64,000 nucleotides of DNA, from positions 193,210 to 257,209 of the forward strand of contig JAAEQR010000072.1 in assembly GCA_024231215.1 (NCBI GenBank), given 5' to 3'. Shown here in pieces: positions 38,670-58,000 of this stretch. This DNA comes from PVC group bacterium (GTDB lineage: Bacteria > Omnitrophota > Gorgyraeia > B26-G9). How positions within the stretch are numbered: the first letter of the stretch is position 1; each line of letters starts with the position of its first letter. The notes beneath the pieces were generated by a model. That model searched no databases, was not told the DNA's origin, and worked only from the letters and a program-made list of their open reading frames with translations. The translations under genes were made by a program, and so were the position numbers.

Positions 38670-39944
38670 ATGAAAAACTTAATAACCAGGATTTTGTGTA
38701 TAACGGTTATATTTTTATTTACGCTTGCGCCGTATTGCTTTGCAGGGTGGGGAAACGTAAGAAAAACAATAGATATGGAGACTAATAAAGATAAAGTTGA
38801 TTCTGCTCAAATAGATAATAAAGAGACTCCATATTCTCATATAAGTACACTAGAGCAAGGTAAAGCAGAGGTTAAGACTTCGAATGAAGAGACAAAAGCT
38901 ACGGTTACAGGGTTAAAAGATGCGGGTTTTTCTGTAGATGCGATTGTGAATAATTTAAAGAACGGGGGCAAAAATGCTTCTGAGATAAGTGTGGCTTGTT
39001 TAGGTTGCAATATCAGTGGCGCGGCAGTACATGCAGCGTTGATTAAATCTGGATTTTCCAAAGAAAGCGCTGATTCAGTAGTGCCGGCAGGATTAATAAA
39101 TCAAGAGTCTGAGGCTTCAATAGCACAGAGCCAAACAGGAAATACTTTAAGCGAAGTGACTGCTCCATTAATTAGTGATTTAGTTTTTGTTCCAATGGAT
39201 AATAATGTTGGAGAAGTATCAGCTAGTGTAGGAGAAGTGGCTTCTGTTGGGTTGAACGATACCAAGCAGGAAGCTTTACAGTTTGCAAAAGATGAACTTG
39301 GAGAAATGCCTCAGAAACCGGAACTTAAAGGGAGAGGTTTCTTTAGCAAAATTATTCGAATATTAGTTTTTCGTATTAAAGTTATCAATAAGATGAAAAA
39401 AGCAGAGAAGACTTCTAAAAAAATGGTAGAAAATGGATATTCTTCTGCGGAAATAGGACATGCTTTTGCTGGAATCGGATACAGTCAGAGACAGACGGCA
39501 ATATTATTAAAAACATCTGGTTTTTCGACAGAAGAAGCATATACAGGTTTGCTGGAAAGCACGGACATTTGGCAGGGGGCAGAGGAGAAAACTATTGCGA
39601 AGTCTATGATTGAAGCAGGATATAATGAAACAGAAGTTGATGCCGCTTTAATCGGTAGTCTGAAAAAACAGGGATATACAGCACAGGAAGTGGTTAATAC
39701 TATTTTTTCAGACATGCCTGAACAGCCAAAAGCAAAAGCGTTAAGTGGTTGGAGAGGTATTATGGTTAGAATCTTAAGAACTGTTTATAATCGTAATATG
39801 GAGGTAAAAGTACAAAAGGCGGAAAAAGCAGCTCAGAATATGATTCGCAGTGGATATAGTAGTGAAGAAGTAAAGGGAGCTTTTAGAAATGCAGGATTTA
39901 ATGATACAAACGCAGTTAAAATATTAAATGCCATTGGCGCGTAA
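38670..39944 (+). CDS. Secreted repeat protein, paralog of 37333..38664 (same G(F/Y)S repeat family)
   Basis: Signal peptide MKNLITRILCITVIFLFTLAPYCFA. Repeats TVTGLKDAGFSVDAIVNNL, VHAALIKSGFSKESADSVVP, MVENGYSSAEIGHAFAGIGYSQRQTAILLKTSGFSTEEAY, MIEAGYNETEVDAALIGSLKKQGYTAQEVVNTIF and MIRSGYSSEEVKGAFRNAGFNDTNAVKILNAIGA. Confidence 0.6.
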   Translation: MKNLITRILCITVIFLFTLAPYCFAGWGNVRKTIDMETNKDKVDSAQIDNKETPYSHISTLEQGKAEVKTSNEETKATVTGLKDAGFSVDAIVNNLKNGGKNASEISVACLGCNISGAAVHAALIKSGFSKESADSVVPAGLINQESEASIAQSQTGNTLSEVTAPLISDLVFVPMDNNVGEVSASVGEVASVGLNDTKQEALQFAKDELGEMPQKPELKGRGFFSKIIRILVFRIKVINKMKKAEKTSKKMVENGYSSAEIGHAFAGIGYSQRQTAILLKTSGFSTEEAYTGLLESTDIWQGAEEKTIAKSMIEAGYNETEVDAALIGSLKKQGYTAQEVVNTIFSDMPEQPKAKALSGWRGIMVRILRTVYNRNMEVKVQKAEKAAQNMIRSGYSSEEVKGAFRNAGFNDTNAVKILNAIGA

Positions 39945-40004: not shown

Positions 40005-43000
40005 ATGCAAGGACTAACTGGTAAGCTGTGGTTTAAAATCATAGCCTTCATCGTTTTACAAACTTTTATGTTTGTGCAGGCAGATATATCCTGGGCGGCA
40101 AATTATCGTCAGCAAAAAGGCCAGGGCGAGAGGGTTGTTGATGAACGCGATAAAGTATCTAAAGACGCGTTAAATACCCAGGTAGTTCTAAATCAGCCTG
40201 CAGTACCGTTTATTAGTTTTGATCCGGGGATTGCTCCGCCTCGTTCGGAAAAACTATCTTTAATCGAGACAACCATAGAAGGTTTGTCGATGGCCGGTAC
40301 GAATTTAAAAACTATATTTGGTACTTTAAAGAATTCCGGTTGTTCGGTATCAGAAACTGGTTTTGCGGCGATGCGGCAGGGATATCCAAAACACGAAATC
40401 TATAAAGCTTTGATCAGCGCCGGGTATGATAAAGAAGAAGTAAAGACAATGCTTGGTAGTATATTACAGCGTGAAGAAGAAAAGAAATCAGAAGATGAAT
40501 CAGCTAACCAGAAGACAGGACCGCCGCTAGACAAAGAGAAAAAGGATGCTGATAAAGAAGCTTCCTTTTTAGACGCAGAACAACCAATCCCCGAATCTTC
40601 CGAAGTGACCGCCCTTTCTGTGGGCAAAGATCCCGTTAAAATAATCGAAAAAGCAACAGCTGATAATGCGGTAATGAACCAGACAGTTGCGTTTGTACGT
40701 TTAATGATCAATGAAGGTAAACGTGGTAAAGAGCTTATAAAGACTTTAAAGAAAGCCGGACTTACTAATGAAAGAATTGTCATGGCTTTGGCTCAGTTAG
40801 GTTTTAGCTTGGATGATATTGTCGCTATATTTAAAGAAGCGGATATCAGCGCTACAGAAATTATTCAGGCCATACACAATGGCTTTTTGGCGTTTAGCGA
40901 TAAAGATATTTATAATGCCCTGCTTAAAAACGGATTTAGTGATAAAGATATTATTGCCGCATTTAAAACAGCCGGAGTATCTTCAGAAGATGTTTTAAAG
41001 ATAGCTACACAATTAAGCCGGAATATGGTGAGTGTGGCCAAGGCAATGGTGGAGGTAGGTTTTAGTTATGCTGATATTGCCAAAGCATATCTTTTAAAGG
41101 CAATGAAATGGACTTTTGATAAGAGTGTGCATGTTGTGAACTGTGCGGTCAAGGCATTTGACGCATTTCTTACTAATATCGGCCGTAAATTTACAAGCAA
41201 AGAAGAACTTGCCTATGAACTCATTGTAGATGATATCCTGCGTACCGGAGAAGTAGAGATTACCGGTAAAGATGTAATGACTTCTATGCTGGCAATAAAG
41301 AATGTTGCCCAGAAATATGGAATAGATATGCAGGGGTATAATTTGACCCTGGAAAGCCTGATGGAATTAAATGACGCAGCGATTGTGCATTTAGACGGTG
41401 ATCACTGGGTAAGTTTGCAAAATATAGATGGTGATCAGGTTTCAATTATTGATAACGGAGAAGAGAAGACAATTTCTCTTACTGAACTAAAAATTCGTTG
41501 GGATGGCAATACATTAGCGATCAATCAGGAGAGAACACAATACCAAGAGCTTTTAGATTTACAGATGCGTCAGATACGTGGTGGTAGAGGTTGGAATCCT
41601 TTTAAAGCGATAAAGAAAATATTTAAAGCAGTTAAAAATTTTATTGTAAAGACTGTTAAAGCTATAGTTAATATAACTAAAGCTGTATTTTATACAATTA
41701 CGGGAAATACACAAAAAGCAGATTATTATTATAACAGGGGTTTTCAACAGTTAAGCCAAGCGCTTAACTCGCTTATCAATGCAGTAGTTCCTGGTAAGTT
41801 CCTACAGAAAATTTTTAAATCTATTGCCAATGGATTGGTTATGTTTGCCCGAGGAATGGTTAATCAGATAAGAGGCTTGTGTATGATGGCTCGGGGTGAT
41901 TTTAAACAGGGATTTAAAACATATCTTATGGGAGTTGTGCAGACTGCGGTTGCTCCGCTAGTTAGTCTCTATGGGATGTTAGGAGAAAAAGTAGGTAGGG
42001 TCGTAGCCAAGGTTATTCAGTGGGTAGTACGTATTGTTGCAGCTGTATTAAGTTTTGTTTGTACTAAAATTTTTGGCTGGACAGGAATAGGAATGGCTAT
42101 AGGAATGGCTATTGCTTTTGTAGCTACCGTAATTACCTGTATGGTGGATTATGATTTTGTTCAGATGGTTCAACGTGGTGATGCGAATGAAATTGCGAGT
42201 GTTATGGGCAAAATATTTAAGGCGGCAGCTATATCCGCAGTAATTGCTGCTGTTGCTTTTTGTATAGGAGGAGCTATCCAGGGATTAGGAGGCACCGCAT
42301 CAACAACAGGCTCAACAATAGCAACAACAGTAGGTAGTATTGTGAGTACTGTAGCCAAGGCAGCAATTACTGTAGCTAAGACTGCAATGACTGTAGCCAA
42401 GTTTGTATTAGCTCCTGTAATAACGGTAGTCAATGTTTTAGCTAGAGCTGCAATGACTGTAGTTACTGCTATAACTAAAATTGTAATGACTGTAGTTAAG
42501 GTTATAGTTGATGGTATGAATCATGTAGTGAGAATGGTGACAAACTTTTTAAAACCTATGATTGAGAATCTTAAGAATTCTATAGTGAATATGGTGAAAG
42601 CTATAAAACCAGATGCAGTTATTCAGGAGATAGGAAGCGAGGTAATTGAAGAAGCTATAACAAAGGTAGTAAAGGAACAAATTGCAATGTATGTTGCTAC
42701 TAAAGGATTGGACTCTGCTGGGATTGATGATCCTTATGTGAGGGCTGGTATTGTAGGTGCTATTGGTGCATGGGCTGGGGGAGACGGCTTTAAAATTGAT
42801 GCAAAAGATGTGGTTGAAGGAGTTTTTATCGGGACAACTCAGGAGACAATAAGGCAGCAGGGATATAAACGTAATTGGGATCCTTTACTTATAGAAAGTC
42901 TCGCTACTGTAGGAGGGACAGTAGTTGGTGCGTCTATAGGTGCTATTCAAACTTCTAGGACAGTTTATACTGGTACCTGGGCGAGTAGAACAATGGATAA

Positions 43001-46000
43001 TTTAAAAGCTTCTTTTGGCCAGATGGTTGGTAATATAGCGACAAACGCTGTACAACGTATTTGCCTGGAAAATGGTATGGATCCTATTGCCACCAGCGCA
43101 ATATCTTCACTTGCAGGTGGTCTTGTCACTGGGCTGGGAAATTATGCTGTTGGAAACAGTCCAGGTGGTTTTCGTAGAAATATGGGGTTTGCATTGGTCC
43201 AAGGAATTAATGATGGGTTTACGTCAGCTGGTTCTATGTTGTATAAAAAGATTTTAGTCGAAGACTTAGCCTTTACTGATAGTCAGGCGTCTTCGATGGT
43301 AAATGGTACTTTTGGTCAATTGAAATATCAAATGGAGCTGCACAATGAATTCGGTTATGGAAAATGGGAAGGGACCGATGACCTGACTTTTAGTCAAAAG
43401 CTTCAACTCGCGGGAACAAAACTTGGTGAGGGTGGAGTGTTTAGTGATTCTTTAAAGGTATTAAATAGAAATGATGGTCTTAAAAATGATCTTATTTCTG
43501 CTATGGGTTTGAACTCAGGTTCGTATTCCGGAACTGCGTATGATAAAGCGAGCTATATAGATGGTTTTAATAGCAAAATAGACTCCATGGATTACATGAT
43601 GAATGGCTTGGATTCCAATATAGAGCTTAAAGCAGATGGTAAATATTATAATTCTGATGGTAGTATTAATACTTATATGTCCCGCAATAAAGCGAAAAAC
43701 GAATATTGGAATCATTGGAAAGAAGCAAAACCAGAAATATTTGGACAATCAGCAGGTGATAGCAATGGAGGGCAATCAACAAATTTAAGTTTTGGCGATG
43801 CTTATTTTGAGACTATTTCTACTCGGCAGCTAAGTTGGCAGAATACCAATGCGAGAAGTTCCCTTAGTTTTATTACTGCTCCTATACGTAATAGCTTAAA
43901 CGTTTCCATATATAATGCTACACGCACTGCATATGAACCTCGCGCTATTATGCAGGGCGCTGAAATTATAAAGATCGCGGACAATTCAGCACAACAGAAA
44001 TATTTAGCAAATTCTATTAGCCCACAGTTTAATTCAATAATAGATGTCAATAATGTAACTTCTGTAGCTTTTAATAGCTGGAATCATTTTCAAACTAATA
44101 CTGCTGCCTATTTTACGACAATTTCCAGCAGTGTTAATAATAAGGGAAGGGAAGTATATGTTTTTAATACAGGCAGAAGAGTTGGTTCTAATTTGGTTTG
44201 CGCGGAAACTCCAAATAAGCAGGCTATGGAAAGTTTTTTCAAAACGGAAGAAATCAATAATTTAACGATCAGTCCTTTTACTAGTAAAACACTGGGTAAT
44301 TTTGAGGCTCAAAACAAGGAAGAATTCATTATTACCGGAGCTATTCAGCAGTTGACGAAAACCGGGATAATTGTAGATTATCAGCTGGTAAGTATGACCG
44401 AGGGTGCAGATATTCTTCTTGCAACAACAATTAATAATGTTGACTTGTTTACTACTGTTGCCAGCGGGGTGCAATTCAGTTCTCAGTCATTAGTATTGAA
44501 GGATAAGAATAACAGTACTTATAAGACTGCGATTGATAAAGTATCCGTAGATTTAGGCATTAATGAAAGTGTTGATAAAATTGCTAATCAGGTAAAGTTA
44601 ACTTCTGCAGTTGAATTATGTATTAATGCTAATGGAAACTTGAGTATAACGGGAGAATCTCTGGACGAACTTAATACAGAGTTAGGAGCCTTGGAAAATC
44701 TGGCAAAGAAATCTAAGGCTATTGATTTGCCGGGCGGTTGTGTTCTTGCAAATACGTCTCTTGAGTATATTGAAACTTCAGAAGGATTAGAGCTTATCGC
44801 AAAAGAGACATTACAGAAAGATCGTAATATTGAATATGAGGGACTAGGTTATACAATTGATACAAGTAAAGGTACGGTTCAGTATGTTTATAATAATAAG
44901 GGAAAAATTACGAGTTTATTGAATTTCGATAAGGGGTATAAAGGAGTAACGCTTAAAGGTTCAGATGGCAAATCAATAATGATTTTTAACGGAAATAATG
45001 TGACTTTAAGTAATGATAAAAAGTCATTTTTTAACTCAATGTTAGTGAAATTGAATTATCGCAAAGGAAATGAATTGAGTATTCGTAGTGCGGAAGTATT
45101 AGCTATAGATGATTATAATCTCGGGAAAGTAAATAGCTTTGAAGTTATGCGACAAGGAAAATCTTTAGCATCATCATCAATAACTGATTCTGCTAAAGAT
45201 TTGTCTACCGAGGGGAAATTAAATTATATTCGTTTAGGTTCTGATTCGGATAGTAATACGATTATTAAAGCAGGAAGTGTTTTTACTATTATTGAAAATG
45301 AGGTCAAATTCAAGAACAATGATGTTTTAATTAATGAAGGAACCAATTCGATTAGTATTACTGGACAAGACAGGTCTTTAATGACTTTGAATGGAAAAGA
45401 ATCAGCAATAATATTGAAGGGTAGTGCGCGTAAATTTGATCTGACTAAAGAAAGTGTCCAAGAGCAGATGAGACAGAAACAAGGCATTCCTACGGATGAT
45501 ACATTAGTAGAGAAGGATACCTTTGTCTTGGGAGACGGCAGCACTGTTGTAATCTATGCAGACCAGGATTCTAATTCTAAGGTATTACAGGTGTTTTCTG
45601 GAAACTTGGGGACAAATGATAAAGGACATAGAACTATCGATGTTTCATTTGTTAATGAAAATGGAATACTGGAAACAATGTCTATGAACAACGATATGCT
45701 AAGGCAGAAGGTCAATTCCAATAGATTTATTAATGGAGTACAAGGGGTATATCAAATTACTTCTGGAGATCAATTAGCATTGGTATTTGAGTTTGGGACA
45801 GGTTCTAATATGCAGCGGAAAGTTTTAGATTTTAGTCTCGGGGAAGATACCAATGGCAGTAGTGTATATACATTGAATGACTGTAGTTTAAATACAGATA
45901 CAAACACTATTAATATGGGCGGGGTGTCTTTTGATAAAACAGAGACATCTTTGCAAACAGCTGTCTTTTATCGTTCGGAAGATACTTCAGCTGTTCAGGG

Positions 46001-49000
46001 GAAAACTGAGGAGATGAATAATGATAGGCTTGATACATTAAATACAGGTATTACTATTGGAGGACATGAAGCTCATTATCAGATAACGACTGATAATAGA
46101 AATAAAGTTGTTTTATCTTATGATGATAAGGTAGTGATGTTTTCTAAAACTACACAGGGGACTGTGGTACAGGCGCCGAAGAATGCAGATGGACTAAGGG
46201 AAATCGGTGACATGGTTAATACTGCGGAAACAGGAGAAAAGACAATAGATGTTATAACTTTTGATGATTCTCAGGTAACTGCGACTATAAATACGATTAC
46301 TCTAGAAGCAGAAGTTTCTCAGCCTAAGAGCATAAATGATATAGACTATTCCGGCAAGAAAATTATGGTTGATGGAGTGAATGGGAGATTTAATAAGGAT
46401 TTGCCAATTAATCAGAATAAAGATGAACTTGTTCCGCGGTCATTTGAACTTGCTGACGGAACAATGCGGGAATGTGTGGTTTTGGCTGAGGCTGATGTTA
46501 ATGCCGGAGAATTTTTGGGAAAATTAGGTGGAGCTAAAATAATCGGGCTTTATGCTACAAAAGATAACCAGGTTTTTATGCATGTACAGGGCAGACAGAA
46601 TATTGTTATGCCGGAAGATAGCTCTGGGCCATCTGATCAGAGTCCTGCGTATACTATTAGTAAGTTTGATATTAAGAGGAAGACAAGTAATGGTTTTAGA
46701 GTTGAAGGTCTTGTTGAGTACCAGCTTTCAGCAGTGGACAATAAAGGTGATTTTGAATTTAATCCCATGGCTTTTAATCCTGGCGCACAATTTTCTGTTT
46801 CCGAAAAGTTTAATAAGAGAGAAGTTATAATCAAAAATAAAGTGCTATTGCGTGGAGATGAGTGTGTTGTTACAAGTCAAGGTGTGGAGGTCGAGAACAG
46901 GATTGATGTTGATTTTATCACGCAGTCACTAGCAGTAAATGATAAAGCATCTACGATTTTTAATCAAATGGTTAGAGTTGATGTGTCTTTACATAAGAGT
47001 GAAGAAGCAGATGCTAATCCAGCGTTAATGATTGATAATGTATTAAGTGTAGATGGTAAAAAAATAGATTTGGACGAGCTATCAGGGATAATTGTTTCTG
47101 AAGGGGAACTTAAGGCAGAGTTTCAGGGAGTGAAACTGGAGAACGGAATAATATCTTTGTCAGCTAAAGGGACAGGTATTATTAATACAATTGGTCAAAA
47201 CCCAGGAGATGAAGAAGATATAGGGTACAATCTGCCAGGTATCACAGTTGCTAATTCAAACTATAAATTAACTCAGAATCTGGGGGAAGGATTTGCAGTT
47301 TGGGAAGGCTTGATGGATTTTGCTGTAATGCCGACAGGTAATGTAAAAGCTTTGTATGAGCAGCAGGGAGTAAAAGGCATTATTGCGGATACATTTGAAG
47401 GCGAGGTTACTATTGCCGGACATAAAGTTAAGAAGTCAGAACAGTTTGAAGTAAATTATGCGGGTGTTACAGTTATTCCTATTGTGCAGCCGAAAACTGT
47501 ACGAAATTTAATGTCTGGAATAGGAGAAAATATATCAGCTGATATTATAAATAGTCTTCGTCAAAATTCAGGCGGTCTTTTTGGAGAGGATCAGTCAATA
47601 ACTGGAGTTATGCATAAAATAAACGAAGACCTTACCGTAGTTAAACTTGATGATAGCAACTCTGTTTTTGATGGGGTAGATTCCTTATTGCAAAATGTAA
47701 ATGTATCAGAAAATGCATTTGATATTGTACAGGTTAATAATGTTCAGCCGTTGGTTCTTATAAGAGGCGACAATGTATCTGTTACTTATTGTGAGATTGA
47801 TAGTAAAGGATTGCCGGTTATAATTGGTAGTTCTGGTATTGATAGCCAACAGGGTATTATTTCGGTAGGCATCGAAAAAGCAGAGCGTAGTTTTAGTGCT
47901 TTTGCCAATGATAACCAGTCCTATGTATATAATAAAACTTCTACAAATGATTTTAGTTTAGAATTAATGCCGCAGCAAGGGAATAAGAATAGTTACTATG
48001 GTACATTGACTAGTAAAAAAGGAGTTGTTACAGGAACTGGTGTTTTTAATAAGAAAAATGCAAGTGATAACCCTATGGTGGCATCGGCGGCTATTTCGAA
48101 ATTTACCGCGGATAATTTAGCTGTAACACAAATAACCCCGCTTGTGCAGGAAGGGAAAGCTCAAGGTTTTAGAATAGATAGTATTTCCGAAACAGCTGTT
48201 GCTTCCTTATCTTTTGTTCCTACAGATAGAGGGGATGCTCTTTTTGCACGGCATTCAAATAAGGAAACAGGAAATCAATATGAGAAGATTTTCTATCTTA
48301 GTGGTTCTAAAATATATCCTAATAGTAAGGCTGGAAATTGCGCGTATTCTTATATCAAGACATTTGATGAGAACAATGATTTAAATATTAGGATAGAAAC
48401 CACAGATGCTTATCGTGGAAGTAAGGAATTTCAGAATAAAGTTTTACTAGTAGACGGAACCTATAATAAAGAGTCAAAGGATTGGAAATACAGTTTAAAT
48501 AGAGAAGGAATTAAAGAAGAAAATTTATTCATAAATAAACATGAGTTTAAGGCATTAACTGATACAATACTTGGTGAGTTTGGAGCTGTCTTAGGTAAAG
48601 ATCTTGGTTTAGATAAGATTAAGGTTGCAGATATTAAGCTAGAGGGGAGTGGAAGTTCTAAAACAGAAAAATATTTTGGGCTTACTGCTGAAGTCTCAGA
48701 AACCGGGTTTAGATTGTATGATCCAAGGGGTGGATATAGTCTCTCTTTGAATGAGAAGAATATCGAAGTGGGGGTGCGGGGAGAATCAATCACATTGTTG
48801 ACCAGAAGCTCAGACAGAGATGAGAGTCATATTAATGAAATCGCTGTTTTAAGAGAATCGTCTTATCATGTAAGTACGGTTAAAGATAAATCAGCCGGAC
48901 TTATCGTTGATGATAAACTTGTCTTGCAAAGAAATGAAAGTGGCTGGCAGTTAGGAGCAGAACATACAGGGAAGTACGAAAAAATATCTAAAGAAGGATC

Positions 49001-52000
49001 AAATATAAGTTTTGACGCGGCTGATCAAATATTTAAAGTTTTACAAAGCGATACTGATATTAATAATTTAGAAGTTGATTTGTCTAATCTTACGACTTCG
49101 CGTATTGCAATGGGGGTTTTTGGCAATTATCAGAAAGTAGTGAGTAGTTGGAATGCAATTTATGGTTCTGAATTCCAGAAACAAATATATGGGGAAGTAA
49201 TAGATAATATAGATTTTGTTTCTAAGTTTGTGGGTGAATATAGTTCCTGGGGCAATGCTAGAAAGGAATTCTTTAAAACTACAGAAGAAGGGAAACAAAT
49301 AGCGGAAGAATTTAAAGAGTTATTTACCAAAGCAATTTCCCAGGTAAACATCAGCGATTGTCCAGAGATCAAAAAGCTTATTGGTTCCCCGGATAAAGAT
49401 TCTAAGGATAAAGAATTTAAAGCAGACTTAGGTTTATTTGGGAAATATCTTAAAGAAGCAATTTCTTCCTATAATACTGCTCAGAGTAATGAGTCTAATC
49501 CTTTGGTTTTTTCTCAGAATATGGCTTTAGCGGAAAAGAATAATAAAATTGCAGGATATGCTTCATTGGGAGCAAATACCGGATTTAGAGATCTTGTATA
49601 TTCATCGCAACATAAAGTGGTTAGTAAGCAGTTGAAGCTTTCTATTGCGCAGTTTAAAGAAATAAACATTATTCCGGAAAAAGAAAATTTATCGGAAGAA
49701 GCTAAAGCTAATTATGCAAAATTTGAGGCGTTTCTAGCTAGTTTTGAATCGGAAGAAGCTAAAGCTGATTATGCAAAACTTGAGGCGTTTCTAACTAGTT
49801 TTGAAAATGCAGGGACATATGATGCTACACGTAAACCTGATGATTCTAACCCTATAGTCAATGATCCTCAAGTAGAGCAGTTAGCGATAAAATTAAATAG
49901 TGATATGGAAGCTCTCGTTGTTACTTTAGAAAATAAACCTGTGAACGGTGAAGAAAAAGATGTAAGTCTTACTGATGTAGCTAAAATATCAGCCAGGATT
50001 CAGGGTACGACAGAAGCCAAACACAGCATTGCAGTGATAAATCAGAGGGAGGCAATAATTTACTTAGCGGAAATGTCTGAAGTTGCCAGTAAGATTGACA
50101 AAGCTTTTGATCAGGAAGTGGAATACTGGCAAAATCAAGTAGATACTGCTGAGGAGTATGATTATTATGATGAAGGTTATTCCGCTAAACAGAAACTCGC
50201 TGAGACAATCCGCAACCAGCATGATTTAAAAATCGAAGTTCTTGTGAAAGCTTATGAAAAACTGCAAAATCCGGATGTTCGTTTAGCCTCTGGTGAACAT
50301 GATATCTCACTTATGACTATAGATTTTTCCAGATCGAAAACTTTTGGTGACAGTCGGGAAGTTTATCTTGCGATCAATAGAGAAGTTTATCGAGAAGCAG
50401 GATTTTTACACTCTGCTAAAGGTCAAACAAAAGAGTTTATTAATGCATTGAATATAGATAAATCTGCTGTATCTTTAACCAATACCCAGATAAAAGCGAT
50501 TACAACAGAATCAGCAAAGACTAAGCCTTATATTTCTTTGTGTGAGTTAGCGACAAAACTAGATACATTTGAAGTTGGGATTGTGGGAGTTATTGGTGAA
50601 TCGCAGGGGTTTTTACAGCAGAACAAAGCAATTTTGGCTAAATATTATGATTATGCTACATCAAAGTTTTTTCCCTGGCAGGAAGAAGGGCAAAAAGAGG
50701 AGTTTAAACAACTCTATGAGGATCAGATTAAAGAACATGGGGCAATAGTTGATTTAAATCCGTTCACAGCTTTGTTGAATGAAATTAAGGTTAATAAGAA
50801 AGTAACAGAGAAAGTAGACGAAAGATATGATGATTTACAAGCATATGAGCATAATATCACAATGCAGAATAACCTGGAAAGTGTTTTTTCTGATTTTAAT
50901 AAAAAATTTGAAGGGCTGAAGACTGATTTTCTTAATGCAAGAGATTCTTTTGTCAGTGAGCCGGCATTTGATATTAATGGTATCAGTGATATTTCTAAAA
51001 AATTAGAAAAGACATCACTTGGTTTTCAGATCGATTCTTTTCAGGTAAAAATTGATAAAGTTCTTTTTTCTATGGGTATGATCACAAGTAAGCTTAATGA
51101 CCAAATAGAAAAGTCATTAAGTAAAAAAACAGTAAGCAAGATGCTCTTTACTACGCCGTCACGCAAAATGTCATTGCAAAGAGAGCATAATCAAAGAATG
51201 GGCAGCTTAAGACGTAATATTCTGAAACTTGATATTCGAACTGAAGTAAGTCAACAGTTCCAGGATCTTGAAGTTAAACTCAAAGATTTGTCTGTACAAT
51301 TAAATAATGCTATAGACAGTGATGATATTAAAGAGGTAACAAGACAATTATCTATAGCTGATGCTAAGGTTCTTTCTGCGTCAATAACCATGGTTTCTGA
51401 ACATATTACCCAGCCGATTGCCGGAAAGTTTCCGCTTCGTATGGATAGTTATAAATTCATGGATACTATGATAGAAGATGATAAGGGTTTGAAGAGGAAG
51501 GGGCTGGGGCAGACGTTAACCGAGGGGTTTCAAAATATTTCGATTAATTTAGTTAATTTACAAAAGGTACTTGATGTTTCCATTGAAATGATGGAACAAA
51601 ATAATACTTCATTTGATTCAGCTAGTTTTGGGAAAGCTTTGTTAAATGTTTCTACCCCATTAATAGATAAGAATATAAGGTTTGCCAATGCTCTTTATGA
51701 AAGCCTTGGCGTAATAGATCAGGTATTTGCTACACAAAAAAATGCGGAAAATTGGTGGACTCAGGTAACAAGTGTTGGACAAAGTAAGGGAATATTTGAA
51801 AGGAATGTTGGTGGTACAGTAAAAAAAGCCTTAGTTGATATTATACAAAAGGCTAGTAATCTAAAATCTTTCATGGATACAGCTATTGACGAGGCAGTAG
51901 AGATTTATGAGAATGAACTTATTGCCACGGTTGATTATAAGCCTTTAATTAAATCACTTCCTCAGTTTGGCCAGCGAGCAGTTTCTAAGATAGAAACGGC

Positions 52001-55000
52001 ATTTAAAGGTTATACCAGGGGAATGGTGTTGAATTTGGTTATTGTTACGGCAGTTGAAGTTATTGGAGCCGTGGCGTTTACATTGCTTACTGGTGGATTT
52101 GGAGCCGGAGTATCAGGGGGAATCTTAGCTGGAAAATGGGGGATCCGGATAAATCGGGCTGCAAAAATGGCTTTGCTTTTCGGAGGTATGATGGCAGCTA
52201 CTCGTGTTTCAGTTCACAATGTGAGGAAATTTTTAAAAGAAGGTTCTGCGGCATTTTCTGATTATTCTATGCTTGAAGATTTCCTTGCTCCGGCAGCGCA
52301 GGGATATCAGAGTGGGAAATGGGTAGGCTATTTCATGGGCGGTGTTGGAGGTATGACGGTAAAAAGTTTAAAGGGAATGCTCTATCTTGGTAAGAAAGAA
52401 TTAGCTAATAAAACTGCTTTGAAGATTTTTGGTCGGACAATAATAAAAGAAGGCATACTTAAACATAGTCAGCAAGTTTTTATTGGATATTTTACAGCGG
52501 GAACAATTGCTCATGCTACCTATGATGTAATTAAACAAGGGTGGAGAGACGGTAAGACCTGGGGAGCAATTAATTGGAAGGATGTGGCTATTGATGCGGT
52601 AACTTTTGGCGGTGAATCTGCATTTTTAGGGACATTAGGCAGAACTATGAGTACTGGATCTGGGATAATGCATAGTAAGATGATGAATAAACCTGCAATA
52701 GAGAAAATTACTAGATCAGATATTATTGGAAAGACTTATACTGAAGGCAAAGTTTTGAAAAATTTCTTTTATACAACTTTCCCAGGGGCCAAGACTTTTG
52801 GAGCTAATTTGTTAGCAGGTGATTCCATAAAGTCCCGGGCGGCACGATATTTATTAGCTGAGCGCATGTTTAGTACTGCTAATGTATTACTTGATTTTAA
52901 TATCTTTGGGAAAATGGTTGTTTCTCCGTCAATGGATATTTGGCGTGGAAGCGGTGGAGAAAAGGTTGAAGATAAGTTTGCTTATAAGATGTTGGCTGGA
53001 TTTGGAGAAGGCGAAGCCGGAGATAGCTGGATGCAGGGCATGCAATTTGGCGGCAGTTTAGCATTTTTTAGTAAGGGAAGTGAATTCATTGAAGCTGGCT
53101 GGTCTAATATGACTAAGAAGGTTTCAATGGGTAAAACACTTAGTCGTCTTAAAATGAGGTCTTACGATAAGTTGCCGGGAACATTTAGACAGCTTACTTC
53201 TGGAACTATAAAAGAAGCGTTTATTGAAGGTCCGATTGCGCATATGCTTGTAAATAGCGGTATAGTTCATCCATATCTCGCGGAAATGTTGGTGGAATTT
53301 ATTCCCGGGGATGGTGGAGCTGATGCAGCTCTTTTTGCGAAGCATGCTGGGGTTTCTACGATGGAAGCAGTTGATATGCATGCTGTTTTGGAAATGGGTA
53401 AAAATACAAGAATAAATCAGATAGTAACGAATAAAGATAGATTACAGGAACTTGCGACAGAATCGAATATTGACGCAGAAAAATTAGGTAAGATGAGTGC
53501 TTTTGATTGGATGACTTCAATGAATACATCTACAGAAAATTCTTCTACTACGTATACAATGTCTGGAGCTTTTGAAACTATTTCCAAAGGGAGCATTACT
53601 ACAGTATCTGACGTGGTGAATTTACACGGAGATAATTCGCATGGATTTATGAAGGATTGCGGGTTTAAAATGGTTTCAATGGCTCATGGTGGCATAGTTG
53701 TAAAAGATATGATTAAGAGTGGTAGTACAAAAGACGGTAATCTGATAGAAGATACAATTATGAGTTTTACTACTGATGATGTTGCGTATATAACTGGAAA
53801 AAGTATTATGGAACTTGGATTGGATAAAGATACTTATTCCGGTAAAACATTAACTCAAGCTGTTGAGCAATTGAACAGTACTGGAGAAGGCAGAATTAGC
53901 CAAAATGAGTTTCTTGAGCTGATAGGGATGAATAATGTTACATTAAGCAGCATTGCAAAATTGCCGGGTTTTCAGGGAATGAAGAAGTCTGAAGTAGCCA
54001 AGGAACTTGGCTTTGAAAAATATAATCCGCATATTCTTTTTTCTAACGATTCATTCCTAGATTTTATGGTAAAAACGGAAATTCTTCCGGTTTATAAATC
54101 AATGGAGAATATGAGTGATTCATATAGGCATATGGCATTGCAGGAACTGGGATTGCTTACTGTCGAGGGAACAACAATTTTCGAACAGCTTGATCAGATG
54201 AAACAGATTCAACAGAAATTGGAAGCAGCGGGTACAACTATTGATAACGCTAGTTTAGAACAAGTTGCTCGCGCGGCAGATAAAAATAATGATCTTGTTA
54301 AGATGTTTGAGGGCAATACAGAATACCAGTATAACAGAGTTAATGCGGCTAGGATTGAAATTGCTAAAGATGCGCAGGGGGAAATAATTACGGATAATGC
54401 TACTAAGCAAGCTAAGATAAGGATGCAAGTTGGTAAAGAATCCCAGGTGCTTAGTTTGACTGATTTTAATAAACAGATTATGGAATTCAGCCGTATTCCG
54501 TATGCAACAATAGACATCGGTGATGGCAAGTCACGGCGTAAGATAGATATTTCTAAGATGAATCCGGAAGTTTTGATTAAGAATCAAAATGGGAACCACC
54601 AGCTGGTAATAACCCTGATGGATACTTCGGTATCAGATCTTGCGAATTTAGGAGTGCAAGGCAGTTCTGAAATCAGAGTTGATAGTAATAATAACGCGGA
54701 AGTCTTTCTAACTACAACTAATGGACGTTATTATAAAACCGGAAAAGTTCTTTTGCAGGATCATCTGGTGCAAGCAGGTATAGTTGATAATGCGCAGGCT
54801 GCGGATCAATTACTGCAAGATCTATTTAATGAAGGAAATGGATTTGTTGATAGAAACGGGGTTATCAATATTAACAAACTTGAAGCAGTAGAAAAAGCTT
54901 ATAATGCAACCATAGAAAAGACAGATAGTGTTGAGATTAAAGAGCAACAACAGCAGTTAGTTAACTTTTTACAGCAGAGTATGGGAAAAACAACCACATT

Positions 55001-58000
55001 TATTTTAGGTAATGATGGGAACTATACTGTAGGACAAAAAGCTGAAATACTAAGTGTGTTATTACAGACTGCGGATCAGGGAATAATGCAGGTAAGGTTT
55101 GATCTGGAGGCATCTGGGCTTGAAAACTTAACAGCCAATGATATTAAAGAGGCTCAAAACGTAGAAGCAAAGATAAATAATGAGATCCAAGGCATGTTTG
55201 GTTACCGCAGAGTAGTGCTTGAGAAAGGAACTCTTAACAAGATTGTGGGTACTGATAGGGCCTTACTAGAAAATCTAGTCAAGTCCGGATATGTTTCTGT
55301 AAGAGAAATAAAAAATGTAAAAACTTATGCGATTACACGTAAATTTGTTGATTTAAAGAATTCAGATGGTATGGAAATATCAGGAGTATCTGCAGAGCAG
55401 AAGAATCTAGTATTTAATACATTACGTAATGAATTTGATAGTCATAGTCAGGATAAATCTTCATATACTCCGCTTATTCAGGAAGGGGTAAATCAGGTAG
55501 ATGCTGTATTAAATCTGATTATTAATCCGAATACATTATTCAGGATCCCGACTGGAACCGGAAAAACATATTATATCTTTACAGCAGCAGCTTCGATTAA
55601 TAAAGCATTAGGTCGAAAGACTGTATACGTGGTGCATGATTTGAATCAGTTTTCTATACAGGCAGATGATGAATCCCGTGCAAATTGGTTTGAATATAAC
55701 GGAATGAAATGGGCAACGATATCCAACGGCCAGAATAATCTTGTCGGTGATCATCACTTTGAACTCAATGCTTTGGAAGCAAATAAAAATGGAGAAGCAC
55801 AGCGATTGCAGGAAAACAGTGATGTGATAATCATGTCTGCGGATGTACTTTCCTTCTTTGAAAATGCTTTGGGTAAAGAAAAAGGTTCTGAAACTACGCA
55901 TATGCAGAAAACATGGGATACGATTTTTGGGAATAATACCATGTTGTTATTTGATGAAGCAGATACGATTTTCTTTAAACAGAGAGCCCAGTCAGGAGAA
56001 GGCGCTAAATCGCTTACTATAGAGAATAAGTTAATTCAAAGAGGTGTGCATTATGAATTTATAGGTAATACATTAGGTTTATGGGGGAAAATCAACAAAA
56101 GTGATTTTAGTGAAACTGAATTGAATCAGATGCATGATGAAGGATATATTAATAAGGATACGGGAAATATTCAGTATGGTTTTGTGCATTTGGTGAGAAC
56201 TAGTGATAAATCAGCAGATAGCAGAAAAACTTTATCTGGGGCTTTGGAAACAAAATTAAGTGATATTGTTAACAAACAAGATTCTCAGGGGCAAACCTTG
56301 TTGACTAAACCTGGAGAACAAATGGACCATCTAAGGTCAATGCTAACGGCTACCTATACTGTGTATAATTGGGAGGGGACAAAAATTGTTCCCCAGAAAA
56401 AAGCCTCTTATATAGAGTACAAACAGGACAAACAGAAGGCTGAAAAAGAAGGAAATCAGGTTGTTGTTACTGGATTTATGTTTAATCAAGAGCTTGTCGA
56501 TCAGTATAAAGGCTGGGTGGAAAAACAATTACCCGGAGATGTAAAGATTGATGATATAGAAAATCCAACTAATATTTCCGAAGAGAATAAGCATAAAGTG
56601 CGTGAATACCGTCGTTCTTTAAAGGCTGTGGCTAAGGTAATATTGCAAGTAGATGGTATTGATGTTGGATATGATCCTGATTCTGGATTAATTCGTCCAG
56701 CTCCGGGTGGTGTTGTTACTCCGGAACTTCAGCTTCAGGATCCTTATTTTGCGGGGCATACACAGTTATTATTTGCCGAAATGAGAGATGTCGAGCAGTC
56801 AGCTATAACTAAGCGTTATGAAAAGGAACTTAAAGCTCAACAGCAAAAAGATGTTAAAGCAGATGCGGAAGACCTGAAATATGCGGATAATTTATATAAA
56901 GTGACAGTATCTGACTGGTCTCGTGTAACTACTATAGATAAGAGTATACGCCGGGCGATGGCTTCCGGCGCTAATATTTGCGGGTTTACCGGTACTTATG
57001 ATGCGGTAACAGACATGGCTTTTCAGCTTTATGGCTTACGTCATAAGTATATGGGGAATAAGTTCCAGTATATCACTTCTATCAGCTGTGATGATCTGGT
57101 GAAAAACGGCGTAGAGGAATCCGCTGCTGATGCTGTATTTAACGACCTTTTTCAGCAGGGATATATTAATAAAGACGGTGTTGTTAGAATAGAGAAATTC
57201 TATGAACTAAATAATGCTTCTGAGTTACAGTTATCTACTCAGGATACGTTTTTACAGAACGCTGTGTTTAATACTTTGAACAATGCTCAGGAAGGCAGAA
57301 TAAATCATGTTTATGAAGCTGATAACTCAGCAAATGCTTTAGAGCATGTATTTAATGATATTGCGGCTAAGGTAATTAAGAACGGTTATATTATGAATGG
57401 TATGCAAACGTTCAATGAAGGTGAAATCAGTAAGAATGTTGTTAATAATTTTGAATCGCTGTTTGCAAATAATCTGAAGAATTTTGTAATTAATAAAGAG
57501 ACTGGAGCAGCGGAGCTAACTGTTGTGGTTAAAGATCAGAAAACAGAATGGGATGTGTATAGAATCCACTATGACCATCAGATAGGAAAAATAGATGTCG
57601 AACATGTGAAGACTCAGGATAAACAAGGTCTCGAAACAACAAAACATAAAACTGGTAAGATTCAGAAATATATGGAAAATCATCAGAATGTATTTTTCTA
57701 TCTTAACCCTTCGGCGAGTAGAGCTACTGATATTGAATCGGTGCATAGTTGGTTAAGCGAGCAGCAAGCAAAATCTATGGAAGCAGATGATTTAAAATCA
57801 GCGGTCAGGAGTAATCTAAAAAACTATGCTCTCTGTGATCGGGAATCCACCAGATGGATGTTTGAACAGTTGGCTGGCCGTGACCGCGGGGCACGAAATA
57901 ATAGCGGCCAACGCGATAACTTTGTTACGATAAACGGACAGAAAATATATCATGACCTTGATGTTTATGTGGTTGACCCGGCGGCACAGTCAGGTGTTAA

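What the first reader, a model, noticed from the sequence alone, without database searches (positions are those of the whole stretch)
41187..41550. Degenerate C39/papain-like segment near the N-terminus of the giant protein
aa ~395-515 read ...VVNCAVKAFDAFL...(85 aa)...AAIVHLDGDHWVSLQNIDGDQVSIIDNGEEKTISLTELKIRWDGNTLAI. The His-containing half (aIvHl..dHWVsL, then v.IiDpg) matches the conserved core of C39 bacteriocin-processing peptidase or C39-like domains, and a candidate Cys (NCAVKAF) sits at the expected distance. The segment lies immediately before the first TM cluster, as in C39-ABC exporters. It could be a catalytic or vestigial leader-processing domain.
Basis: inference. Interest (0 to 1): 0.55.

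Follow-up and report, generated by a model that had tools for sequence, protein, structure and literature searches.

The report
Self-cleaving C39 protease head on giant protein
The flagged segment is a real, apparently active C39 cysteine protease domain at the start of a 7,815-residue Omnitrophota-type giant membrane protein, a placement already reported for such proteins, and it is followed by a built-in copy of the sequence C39 proteases normally cut, which predicts where the giant protein is clipped.

Summary
Giant-protein residues ~372-509 (ORF 40005-63452, +) are a genuine Peptidase_C39 domain: Pfam E=3e-11, above the curated cut-off. An AlphaFold model (pLDDT 91) best matches LahT150, PCAT1 and ComA. 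It is not degenerate. Cys380, His467 and Asp483 are invariant in nine orthologues and largely kept across ~119 related domains. His467 and Asp483 align with the catalytic His/Asp of solved C39 proteases. Only the canonical oxyanion Gln is missing.

The comparison with C39-ABC exporters fails, because no ABC domains lie in the protein or beside it. The source is a PVC-group/Omnitrophota MAG. N-terminal C39 domains on Omnitrophota giant proteins are already published (West-Roberts 2023), so the domain itself is not new.

The addition is a conserved double-glycine-leader-like motif just after the domain: LLDLQMRQIRGG|R, residues 516-527, with Leu-12, Gln-8, Met-7, Ile-4 and Gly-Gly. It is shared across the family as G-[G/A/S]. 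In a family-library scan, related tails matched almost only bacteriocin/RiPP leader families. Similarity between otherwise unrelated giant proteins stops at this motif.

Best reading, as inference: a leader protease that cuts itself off after Gly527. I could not measure the Cys-to-Gly distance, and cleavage is untested.

The parts
40005..63452 (+). Giant ORF of 7,815 aa. It is identical to GenBank MCP4649168.1, 'hypothetical protein GY853_03685 [PVC group bacterium]'.
   Evidence: ORF list. 100% match to P0009. Source name from the cluster look-up.
40023..40097 (+). N-terminal hydrophobic, signal-peptide-like segment (aa 7-31, KLWFKIIAFIVLQTFMFVQADISWA|AN). It is unusually well conserved among homologues.
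   Evidence: Hydropathy scan and alignment A1. Signal-peptide function and cleavage after SWA are inferred from n/h/c-region rules and were not predicted with a dedicated tool.
40260..41057 (+). Two blocks of ~14-aa helix-loop repeats (aa 86-138 and 241-351, motif L.K.G[FY]S..[DE]I), separated by a poorly conserved acidic linker.
   Evidence: Motif scan. AF2 secondary structure with pLDDT 70-88 in these blocks. Conservation profile.
41118..41531 (+). Peptidase C39 domain (aa ~372-509).
   Evidence: Pfam PF03412 at E=3.3e-11. AF2 pLDDT 91. Foldseek top hits 6mpz, 4ry2, 5xe8, 3k8u and 3zua.
41142..41144 (+). Cys380 (TGT), the predicted nucleophile, in the motif (V/I)NCA.
   Evidence: Invariant in nine orthologues. 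Cys in 93 of 105 aligned family domains, otherwise Ser or Thr. First residue of model helix 23-34. Codon checked.
41403..41405 (+). His467 (CAC), the predicted catalytic His, in the motif DHWV.
   Evidence: His in 118 of 118 family domains. Aligns with the catalytic His of PCAT1, ComA and LahT150.
41451..41453 (+). Asp483 (GAT), the predicted third triad residue, 16 residues after His, in the motif IIDNG.
   Evidence: Asp or Glu in 112 of 116 family domains. Aligns with the DP motif of PCAT1 and ComA.
41550..41585 (+). Cis double-glycine-leader-like motif, aa 516-527, LLDLQMRQIRGG (Leu-12, Gln-8, Met-7, Ile-4, Gly-2, Gly-1). The predicted scissile bond is Gly527|Arg528, at nt 41585|41586.
   Evidence: M521, R522, I524, R525, G526, G527 and R528 are invariant in orthologues. 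The AF2 tail has pLDDT ~97, with a helix at -10..-5 and an extended stretch at -3/-2. Tail peptides hit double-glycine leader families and the reversed control hits none. BLASTP similarity to long homologues ends here.
41592..41924 (+). Lys-rich amphipathic helices after the predicted cleavage site (aa 530-640; the new N-terminus would be RGWNPFKAIKKIFK...).
   Evidence: Sequence. AF2 helices 532-656. Conservation falls from 0.82 to about 0.3 and then near 0.
41925..42509 (+). First cluster of transmembrane-like hydrophobic segments (aa ~641-835). It has no similarity to ABC transporter membrane domains.
   Evidence: Hydropathy scan. No ABC_membrane Pfam hit at E<=1.

Best explanation
Residues ~372-509 of the giant protein form a catalytically competent C39 (double-glycine-type) cysteine peptidase with the triad Cys380/His467/Asp483. 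It belongs to a conserved N-terminal 'head': a signal-peptide-like segment, 14-aa helical repeats, the C39 domain and a leader-like helix.

The head ends in a built-in substrate motif, LLDLQMRQIRGG (residues 516-527). This reproduces the recognition code of C39 substrates: a hydrophobic residue at -12, Glu/Gln at -8, Leu/Met at -7, a hydrophobic residue at -4, and Gly-[Gly/Ala/Ser] at -2/-1.

The proposed mechanism is as follows. The leader-like helix folds back into the hydrophobic groove of its own C39 domain. This places Gly526-Gly527 in the active site. The domain then cuts after Gly527. The ~527-residue head separates from the ~7,290-residue membrane-embedded body, whose new N-terminus is RGWNPFKAIKK.... 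This is how a viral leader protease works.

Shown: domain identity, fold, residue conservation, the motif and its family-wide conservation, and the coincidence of the module boundary with the motif. Inferred: docking of the tail in the active site, cleavage itself, cis rather than trans action, and the cellular compartment.
For: **Domain**
- Pfam PF03412 at E=3.3e-11, above the gathering cut-off.
- AF2 mean pLDDT 91.4 and pTM 0.87.
- Foldseek top PDB hits are all C39 domains: 6mpz, 4ry2, 5xe8, 3k8u and 3zua.
- His467 and Asp483 align with the catalytic His/Asp of PCAT1, ComA and LahT150.
- Cys380, His467 and Asp483 are invariant in nine orthologues at 37-61% identity. Across 119 family domains the counts are Cys 93/105, His 118/118 and Asp/Glu 112/116.

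**Cis substrate motif**
- M521-R528 is invariant in the orthologues, and residues 521-530 form one of the best-conserved 10-aa blocks of the first 700 aa (0.82). Conservation then collapses.
- Family-wide, the column of G526 is Gly in 72 of 80 and the column of G527 is G/A/S in 72 of 79.
- In the 69 tails that carry G-[G/A/S], -12 is L/I/M/V in 68, -8 is Q/E in 49, -7 is M/L in 49 and -4 is I/V/L in 62.
- This matches the published consensus Leu(-12)-X3-Glu(-8)-Leu(-7)...Gly-Gly/Ala/Ser and the Val-4/Leu-7/Leu-12 groove contacts of LahT150 (PMC6363468).
- The 69 tails scanned against 18,950 NCBIfam models gave 14 matches. Thirteen were to bacteriocin, RiPP or pheromone peptide families, most of which carry double-glycine leaders (bacteriocin_sig, BlpC, lactococcin G, cerein 7B, mersacidin, GG_sam_targ). 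The reversed tails gave none.
- The AF2 tail is confident (pLDDT ~97), with a two-turn helix at -10..-5 and an extended -3/-2. That is the bound-leader conformation described for LahT150. Confidence drops to 64 right after G527.

**Module boundary**
- BLASTP of the giant protein against long homologues aligns only residues 1-551 (P0010, 6,321 aa), 1-527 (P0013, 7,803 aa) and 10-526 (P0015, 4,961 aa).
- Many phmmer alignments end at residues 526-530.
- Second C39 copies in multi-C39 relatives lack the tail, so the fold does not require it.

**Precedent**
- The C39 domain of StbD-CT auto-processes in cis after a Gly-Gly in its own linker. Cys-to-Ala and Gly-to-Ser substitutions block this (bioRxiv 10.64898/2026.05.07.723447).
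Against: - No model coordinates were available, so neither the Cys380-Gly527 distance nor the spatial adjacency of the triad was measured.
- A second AF2 run (aa 1-700, nine-sequence alignment) was low-confidence overall (pLDDT 59, tail below 50). It did not reproduce the docked tail.
- The canonical oxyanion Gln six residues before the Cys is absent. The window has Ser374, and the family has S/T/G there.
- Each leader-family hit is individually weak (E 0.005-0.1). At that threshold about seven hits would be expected by chance, so only the identity of the families is informative. The CtA leader hit in PDB is non-significant (E=0.79).
- Family members with Ser or Thr in place of Cys keep the tail. 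The tail's conservation therefore does not strictly track a Cys nucleophile.
- In a subset of members the P' side is also conserved (GW(W/N)..), so the motif could be partly structural or membrane-related.
- If the N-terminal segment is a true signal peptide, the domain works in an oxidising compartment, unlike PCAT C39 domains.
- No experimental or proteomic evidence of cleavage exists.
Confidence: 0.55

Rival explanations
1. The C39 domain is active but works in trans, on other secreted or membrane proteins or at other sites in giant proteins. The conserved tail is then a pseudo-substrate or autoinhibitory plug, or simply a structural C-terminal cap, and is not cut.
For: West-Roberts et al. 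raise other substrates as an alternative. The tail persists in Cys-to-Ser/Thr variants. In some members the P' side is also conserved. The high-confidence docking in AF2 fits an inhibitory plug equally well.
Against: No N-terminal double-glycine-leader ORF is present in the window. Loose double-glycine motifs elsewhere in the giant protein are not significantly enriched: 7 observed against 3.6 +/- 1.9 expected. The small upstream ORF's G-S site is not conserved in the syntenic locus. The homology boundary falling exactly at the Gly-Gly is more naturally explained by a processing junction.
Confidence: 0.25
2. The domain is a non-catalytic C39-like domain that binds or chaperones an unfolded substrate, as in the HlyB-type RTX exporters.
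For: The HlyB C39-like domain 3zua is among the structural matches. The oxyanion Gln is missing. The Cys-bearing half is not aligned by the Pfam profile.
Against: C39-like domains are defined by loss of the catalytic Cys. Here Cys380, His467 and Asp483 are invariant in orthologues and strongly conserved family-wide. Catalytic C39 domains (LahT150, PCAT1, ComA) match better than HlyB. The role of the oxyanion Gln is doubted even in LahT150 (PMC6363468).
Confidence: 0.08
3. The domain is the peptidase part of a PCAT/AMS-like exporter built into the giant protein. It would remove leaders from separate double-glycine peptides, and the following transmembrane cluster would be the export channel.
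For: The giant protein also carries an ATPase-like ResIII/DEAD region far downstream.
Against: There is no ABC_membrane or ABC_tran similarity in the protein at E<=1. No ABC exporter or cargo peptide genes lie adjacent, here or in the syntenic Omnitrophota locus. A signal-peptide-like N-terminus would place the domain outside the cytoplasm, which is an inference.
Confidence: 0.07

Closest known systems
N-terminal C39 peptidase domains of Omnitrophota giant proteins (West-Roberts et al. 2023, bioRxiv 10.1101/2023.11.21.568195; PF03412 architecture cluster in bioRxiv 10.64898/2026.06.07.730766)
   Same: The taxon is the same: all named homologues and all 11 GTDB loci are Candidatus Omnitrophota. 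The placement near the N-terminus, next to a predicted signal peptide and ahead of transmembrane regions, is also the same. Those authors already proposed autocatalytic cleavage of giant proteins.
   Different: Neither paper mentions a glycine or leader motif or any cleavage point. West-Roberts et al. state that information on cleavage points was lacking. What is added here is the conserved cis double-glycine-type site and the observation that homology between giant proteins ends at it. This particular protein is labelled only 'hypothetical protein' in GenBank.
C39 peptidase domains of PCAT/AMS bacteriocin exporters (LahT150 6mpz, PCAT1 4ry2, ComA 3k8u/5xe8)
   Same: These are the best structural matches. 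The catalytic His and Asp align. The substrate code (Leu-12, Glu-8, Leu-7, hydrophobic -4, Gly-Gly/Ala/Ser) equals the cis tail consensus.
   Different: There is no ABC transporter. The substrate-like motif is in the same polypeptide, C-terminal to the domain. The Cys-His spacing is 87 aa, against ~74 in LahT147 (Cys27, His101) and ~78-79 in ComA and PCAT1 as I recall them. The oxyanion Gln is absent. The domain is probably extracytoplasmic.
StbD-CT (Citrobacter rodentium CdiA-like toxin) C39 peptidase, 8ssk/8ssm
   Same: It is a C39 domain that auto-processes in cis after a canonical Gly-Gly in its own chain. It is also a structural hit for the model.
   Different: In StbD the Gly-Gly lies about 25 residues upstream of the catalytic Cys, in a linker, and cleavage releases the protease as a toxin. 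Here the site lies 44 residues downstream of the catalytic Asp and would release the head from a giant membrane protein.
Viral papain-like leader proteases that cut at their own C-terminus (FMDV Lpro; potyvirus HC-Pro, which cleaves at Gly-Gly) - from general knowledge, not tested here
   Same: The logic is the same: a papain-fold protease at the N-terminus of a very long polyprotein frees itself by a single cut at its own C-terminal boundary, after small residues.
   Different: These belong to different peptidase families, with no homology claimed. The hosts are viral, and there is no signal peptide or membrane context.
HlyB-type C39-like domains of RTX type I exporters (3zua)
   Same: The fold is the same.
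   Different: C39-like domains lack the catalytic Cys and are cytoplasmic parts of ABC transporters. Here the triad is intact and there is no ABC transporter.

Membership tests
Peptidase family C39 (Pfam PF03412; bacteriocin-processing, double-glycine peptidases) | Sequence match to the family profile above the curated threshold | tested here: met
   PF03412 scores 43.6 bits against a gathering cut-off of 22, E=3.3e-11, covering profile positions 45-131 of 133. All eight close homologues carry precomputed PF03412 hits.
Peptidase family C39 (Pfam PF03412; bacteriocin-processing, double-glycine peptidases) | Papain-like alpha+beta fold superimposable on solved C39 domains | tested here: met
   The AF2 model has pLDDT 91.4. 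Foldseek gives 6mpz_B at E=1.3e-5, rmsd 2.5 A over 130 columns and target TM 0.73, followed by 4ry2, 5xe8, 3k8u and 3zua.
Peptidase family C39 (Pfam PF03412; bacteriocin-processing, double-glycine peptidases) | Nucleophilic Cys at the N-terminus of helix alpha-1 | tested here: met
   Cys380 is the first residue of model helix 23-34. It is invariant in orthologues and is Cys in 93 of 105 family domains. It was not aligned by sequence profiles to the PDB Cys, and its distance to His467 was not measured.
Peptidase family C39 (Pfam PF03412; bacteriocin-processing, double-glycine peptidases) | Catalytic His and Asp on adjacent beta-strands, with Asp ~16 residues after His | tested here: met
   His467 and Asp483 align with the HF/HY...DP motifs of PCAT1, ComA and LahT150. 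The family counts are His 118/118 and Asp/Glu 112/116.
Peptidase family C39 (Pfam PF03412; bacteriocin-processing, double-glycine peptidases) | Oxyanion-hole Gln about six residues before the Cys | tested here: not met
   Position -6 is Ser374 in the window and S/T/G in the family. A conserved Asn379 sits at -1 instead. The role of this Gln is questioned in LahT150 itself, so it is a weak criterion.
Peptidase family C39 (Pfam PF03412; bacteriocin-processing, double-glycine peptidases) | Cleaves after a Gly-Gly/Ala/Ser that follows an amphipathic leader helix | not testable with these tools
   A matching motif exists in cis. Cleavage needs biochemistry.
PCAT/AMS peptidase-containing ABC exporters | C39 domain fused to an ABC transmembrane domain and a nucleotide-binding domain | tested here: not met
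   There are no ABC_membrane or ABC_tran hits at E<=1 in the 7,815-aa protein. None is adjacent here or immediately upstream in the syntenic locus L002.
HlyB-type C39-like domain | Loss of the catalytic Cys | tested here: not met
   Cys380 is present and invariant in orthologues.
Omnitrophota giant proteins with an N-terminal C39 domain (West-Roberts 2023) | Omnitrophota origin | tested here: met
   The record is labelled 'PVC group bacterium'. All named homologues and all 11 GTDB loci are Candidatus Omnitrophota. The gene order radA-PIN-ispD-ispF-cysS-ROK-giant is syntenic with Omnitrophota MAG GCA_016213925.1.
Omnitrophota giant proteins with an N-terminal C39 domain (West-Roberts 2023) | Very long ORF (>=7,000 aa) with a C39 domain near the N-terminus next to a signal peptide, and multiple transmembrane regions | tested here: met
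   The ORF is 7,815 aa. The C39 domain is at residues 372-509, after a hydrophobic N-terminus. Hydrophobic clusters lie at ~641-835, 4007-4037 and 6434-6486.
Omnitrophota giant proteins with an N-terminal C39 domain (West-Roberts 2023) | Divergent SecA_DEAD helicase domain | tested here: inconclusive
   Only ResIII (E=1.4e-5) and DEAD (E=0.022) hits were found, at residues ~5166-5330. There was no SecA_DEAD hit and no PDB sequence hit.

The most novel reading that the evidence does not exclude
The head (signal peptide, helical repeats, C39 domain and double-glycine leader) is a self-excising leader-protease cassette that Omnitrophota attach to many unrelated giant or large membrane proteins. 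The Gly-[Gly/Ala/Ser] site would be both the proteolytic junction and the evolutionary recombination boundary. This would be the first defined maturation step and cleavage point for bacterial giant proteins. It would also be a new configuration of C39 peptidases, with the substrate leader fused C-terminally to its own protease.
Probability: 0.45. Interest if true: 0.65.

Novelty: new variant of a known kind. Interest (0 to 1): 0.45.

Why it matters
Whether bacterial giant proteins of 7,000 to over 100,000 residues act as single chains or are cut into pieces is an open question. The main paper on them notes that no cleavage points are known.

A conserved, sequence-defined candidate site (after Gly527 here, G-[G/A/S] across the family) next to an intact C39 protease makes that question testable. 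The tests are a short recombinant construct with point mutants, or N-terminomics on enrichment cultures.

The motif also gives annotators a simple rule for the boundary of the conserved head. It also extends the known repertoire of C39 peptidases beyond ABC exporters and the recently described StbD toxin.

The C39 domain itself is ordinary and already reported for this group.

Tried and rejected
- **Word-index homologue searches.** The search with the domain alone found nothing. With a 36-sequence profile it found only three proteins. Useful homologues came from the 1,200-aa N-terminal query and the exhaustive representative search.
- **Single-sequence PDB search.** This gave only a marginal LahT150 hit at E=0.35. 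The profile search was needed.
- **Second AF2 run.** Residues 1-700 with nine close sequences gave pLDDT 59. It is uninformative for the C39 domain and tail, and useful only for the helical repeats.
- **Model coordinates.** They are not exposed.
- **Further double-glycine-type sites in the giant protein.** Seven loose matches against 3.6 +/- 1.9 expected is not significant. I rejected these as evidence for multi-site processing.
- **Double-glycine-leader small ORFs in the window.** Only spurious internal matches in housekeeping genes turned up. A G-S site in ORF 36455-36907 is not conserved in its orthologue.
- **PCAT-like architecture.** Rejected, because no ABC domains are present.
- **Polymorphic-toxin C39 (Tox-PL-C39; Zhang et al. 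2012).** Considered. One family member is named RHS-associated. The window protein has no detectable toxin or RHS domain.
- **GTDB scan.** The scan with profile A2 failed for lack of conserved stretches. It was repeated with A1.
- **Helicase-like region.** It gave no PDB sequence hit.
Full report
**1. Observation**

The window carries one uninterrupted ORF, 40005-63452 on the + strand, encoding 7,815 aa. Nucleotides 41187-41550 translate in that frame to residues 395-515 and contain the quoted His-bearing string.

The quoted Cys string VVNCAVKAFDAFL is at residues 377-389, nt 41133-41171. The coordinates given therefore omit the candidate nucleophile Cys380 (TGT, 41142-41144). Cys380 to His467 is 87 aa, and His467 to Asp483 is 16 aa.

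The resemblance is not chance:
- Pfam Peptidase_C39 (PF03412) matches residues 426-509 at E=3.3e-11 and 43.6 bits, against a gathering cut-off of 22.
- Several NCBIfam C39 models match weakly: the NHLM ABC peptidase, FilB and FapD.
- Only profile positions 45-131 of 133 align.

**2. What the domain is**

The exhaustive protein search returned the identical protein, P0009. This is GenBank MCP4649168.1, 'hypothetical protein GY853_03685 [PVC group bacterium]', on a 708-kb contig.

It also returned 121 relatives. Every relative that carries a taxon name is Candidatus Omnitrophota/Omnitrophica, apart from one entry labelled only 'sediment metagenome'. Several are named 'cysteine peptidase family C39 domain-containing protein' by NCBI. 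A scan of GTDB species genomes found 11 loci, all in Candidatus Omnitrophota MAGs.

The chromosomal context is housekeeping:
- The window carries enolase, H+-PPase, lysS, clpC, radA, cysS and a ROK kinase.
- The order radA-PIN-ispD-ispF-cysS-ROK-giant is syntenic with Omnitrophota MAG GCA_016213925.1.

In nine orthologues at 37-61% identity, Cys380, His467 and Asp483 are invariant. Across 119 related domains the counts are:

| Residue | Kept | Notes |
|---|---|---|
| Cys380 | 93 of 105 | otherwise Ser or Thr |
| His467 | 118 of 118 | |
| Asp483 | 112 of 116 | as Asp or Glu |

An AlphaFold2 model of residues 358-532, built on a 36-sequence alignment, is confident, with mean pLDDT 91.4 and pTM 0.87. 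It places Cys380 at the start of a helix.

Its best PDB matches are all C39 domains:
- LahT150 6mpz: E=1.3e-5, rmsd 2.5 A over 130 columns, target TM 0.73.
- PCAT1 4ry2, ComA 5xe8 and 3k8u, the StbD-CT peptidase 8ssk/8ssm, and the HlyB C39-like domain 3zua.

A family profile aligns His467 and Asp483 with the catalytic His and Asp of PCAT1, ComA and LahT150.

The one canonical feature missing is the oxyanion Gln six residues before the Cys. The window has Ser374, and the family has S/T/G there with a conserved Asn at -1. The LahT150 structure paper itself doubts that Gln's role (PMC6363468).

So this is a bona fide C39 domain of apparently catalytic type. It is neither vestigial nor an HlyB-type C39-like domain.

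**3. What it is not**

The giant protein has no ABC_membrane or ABC_tran match at E<=1. No ABC exporter lies beside the gene, here or immediately upstream in the syntenic locus.

The N-terminus (KLWFKIIAFIVLQTFMFVQADISWA|AN) looks like a Sec signal peptide and is unusually well conserved. By inference, the domain may lie outside the cytoplasm, unlike PCAT peptidase domains.

**4. The cis double-glycine motif**

The orthologue alignment shows a second island of invariance just after the domain: M521, R522, I524, R525, G526, G527 and R528. Residues 521-530 have mean pairwise identity 0.82, among the highest in the first 700 residues. Conservation then falls to about 0.3 and then to near zero.

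Counted back from Gly527, the segment LLDLQMRQIRGG has Leu at -12, Gln at -8, Met at -7, Ile at -4, and Gly-Gly at -2/-1.

The published recognition code for C39 substrates is Leu(-12)-X3-Glu(-8)-Leu(-7) ahead of Gly-Gly, Gly-Ala or Gly-Ser. [quoted passage not shown]

The motif is shared across the family:

| Position | Residues | Count |
|---|---|---|
| column of G526 | Gly | 72 of 80 |
| column of G527 | Gly/Ala/Ser | 72 of 79 |
| -12 | L/I/M/V | 68 of 69 |
| -8 | Q/E | 49 of 69 |
| -7 | M/L | 49 of 69 |
| -4 | I/V/L | 62 of 69 |

The last four rows are counted on the 69 tails that carry G-[G/A/S]. Typical examples are LSDAEMMNIRGA, LTIKEMLEIRGS and LSENEMKNIYGA.

An unbiased test supports the likeness:
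- The 69 thirty-residue tails were scanned against all 18,950 NCBIfam models and gave 14 matches at E<=0.1.
- Thirteen were to bacteriocin, RiPP or pheromone peptide families, most of which carry double-glycine leaders: TIGR01847 bacteriocin_sig, BlpC, lactococcin G-alpha, cerein 7B, mersacidin/lichenicidin, GG_sam_targ_CFB, CCRG-2 and EntF. In a preliminary ten-peptide scan, one tail exceeded the bacteriocin_sig cut-off, at 16.1 against 15.7 bits.
- The same peptides reversed gave no match at all.
- The window's own tail hit the BlpC leader at E=0.033.
- The individual E-values are weak, and about seven chance hits would be expected at this threshold. It is the identity of the families that carries the weight.
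- A tail profile searched against PDB placed the CtA leader of PCAT1 fifth, but not significantly (E=0.79).

In the AF2 model the tail is confidently placed, with pLDDT ~97 for residues 518-527. It forms a helix at -10..-5 and an extended, beta-bridged stretch at -3/-2. Confidence drops to 64 immediately after Gly527. This is the conformation of a bound leader.

**5. The motif marks a module boundary**

BLASTP of the giant protein against its long relatives aligns only the head:

| Homologue | Length | Window residues aligned |
|---|---|---|
| P0010 | 6,321 aa | 1-551 |
| P0013 | 7,803 aa | 1-527 |
| P0015 | 4,961 aa | 10-526 |

The thousands of residues that follow are unrelated at E<1e-5. 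Many phmmer alignments also end at residues 526-530.

A complete 1,490-aa paralogue in another MAG carries the same head on a different body. Of three such relatives scanned whole, none gave a Pfam hit other than C39.

In relatives with two or three C39 copies, only the first copy has the tail. The others end in Pro-rich linkers. The tail is therefore an add-on with its own role, not part of the fold.

**6. Mechanism proposed**

The head consists of a signal-peptide-like segment, two blocks of ~14-aa helix-loop repeats, the C39 domain and the leader-like helix. I propose that it is a self-excising cassette:
1. The leader-like helix docks in the groove of its own C39 domain.
2. Gly526-Gly527 enter the narrow active site.
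3. Cys380 cuts after Gly527.
4. The ~527-aa head separates from the ~7,290-aa body, which starts with Lys-rich amphipathic helices and a transmembrane cluster at residues ~641-835.

A direct precedent for cis auto-processing by a C39 domain after its own Gly-Gly now exists in StbD-CT. There, Cys-to-Ala and Gly-to-Ser substitutions block cleavage, and mixing experiments show that it acts in cis (bioRxiv 10.64898/2026.05.07.723447). In StbD the site lies upstream of the domain. Here it lies downstream, as in viral leader proteases (general knowledge).

What is shown: identity, fold, conservation, the motif, and the module boundary. What is inferred: docking geometry, cleavage, cis versus trans action, and compartment.

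**7. Weak points**

- I could not obtain model coordinates. The triad geometry and the Cys-to-Gly527 distance are therefore unmeasured.
- A second AF2 run on residues 1-700 with only nine sequences was of low confidence (pLDDT 59). It did not reproduce the docked tail.
- Members with Ser or Thr in place of Cys keep the tail.
- A subset of members also conserves the P' side as GW(W/N)...
- Other loose double-glycine motifs in the giant protein are not enriched: 7 against 3.6 +/- 1.9 expected. There is therefore no support for multi-site processing.
- No trans substrate gene with a double-glycine leader is present in the window.

**8. Comparison with the literature and novelty**

West-Roberts et al. 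(2023) already report C39 domains near the N-terminus of full-length Omnitrophota giant proteins, next to predicted signal peptides. They suggest that these domains may cleave the giant proteins or other substrates. A 2026 preprint lists a 24-protein PF03412 architecture cluster among Omnitrophota long proteins. NCBI names several relatives as C39 domain proteins.

Neither preprint mentions a glycine or leader motif. [quoted passage not shown] A full-text search for C39 together with Omnitrophota found nothing else relevant.

The cis double-glycine site and its coincidence with the homology boundary appear to be new. They make this a new variant of a known kind.

**9. Verdict**

- The C39 assignment is supported, with about 0.9 confidence that this is a genuine C39 domain of catalytic type.
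- Self-cleavage after Gly527 is the best-supported mechanism, at about 0.55.
- Interest is moderate at 0.45. The domain is ordinary and already published for this group, but the predicted cleavage point makes an open question about giant proteins directly testable.

Noticed in passing
window 37333-38664 and 38670-39944 (+): Two ORFs (443 and 424 aa) directly upstream each have an N-terminal hydrophobic segment and the same ~14-aa helix-loop repeat (L.K.G[FY]S..[DE]I) as giant-protein residues 86-138 and 241-351. They have no significant Pfam match. They are absent from the otherwise syntenic Omnitrophota locus L002.
   Followed up: partly
window 36455-36907 (+); L002:9481-9945: A 150-aa ORF has a signal peptide (NFWLKLIAVLIIQALFLTQVDFSLAAVY) resembling the giant protein's own conserved N-terminus. 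An orthologue sits at the same position in the syntenic MAG. Its internal G-S motif is not conserved.
   Followed up: partly
window 55527-55883 (+), giant aa 5175-5293: A ResIII/DEAD helicase-like region (E=1.4e-5) with no PDB sequence hit. It is possibly the 'divergent SecA DEAD' domain reported for Omnitrophota giant proteins. SecA_DEAD itself did not hit.
   Followed up: partly
family members P0043, P0052, P0057, P0058, P0097, P0098, P0114, P0123: In this sub-group the C39 nucleophile is replaced by Ser or Thr (motif SLHFGxSA), while His, Asp/Glu and the G-[A/S] tail are kept. It could be a Ser-His-Asp variant of the papain fold or an inactive form.
   Followed up: no
family members P0024, P0025, P0027, P0028, P0030, P0031, P0034, P0039: These proteins have two or three C39 domains. 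Only the first copy, at aa ~600-800, carries the double-glycine-type tail. Later copies end in Pro-rich linkers.
   Followed up: partly
window 41586-41615 (+), giant aa 528-537; also P0043, P0077, P0056, P0095, P0104: The residues just after the predicted cut recur in distant members: GG|RGWNPFKAIK here, GA|GWNPFKAIGK, GA|GWNPFS and GA|GWWSK elsewhere. This suggests a conserved aromatic or amphipathic new N-terminus, perhaps a membrane-interface element.
   Followed up: no
P0103 (2,141 aa, JGI): One family member with a C39 domain and a KGG tail is labelled 'RHS repeat-associated protein'. This hints that the same cassette may occur on polymorphic-toxin-like proteins.
   Followed up: no
window 36954-37343 (+): A PilZ-domain protein (E=1.6e-9) lies between the small secreted ORF and the repeat proteins upstream of the giant gene. 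West-Roberts et al. note secretion and pilus-type genes near giant genes.
   Followed up: no
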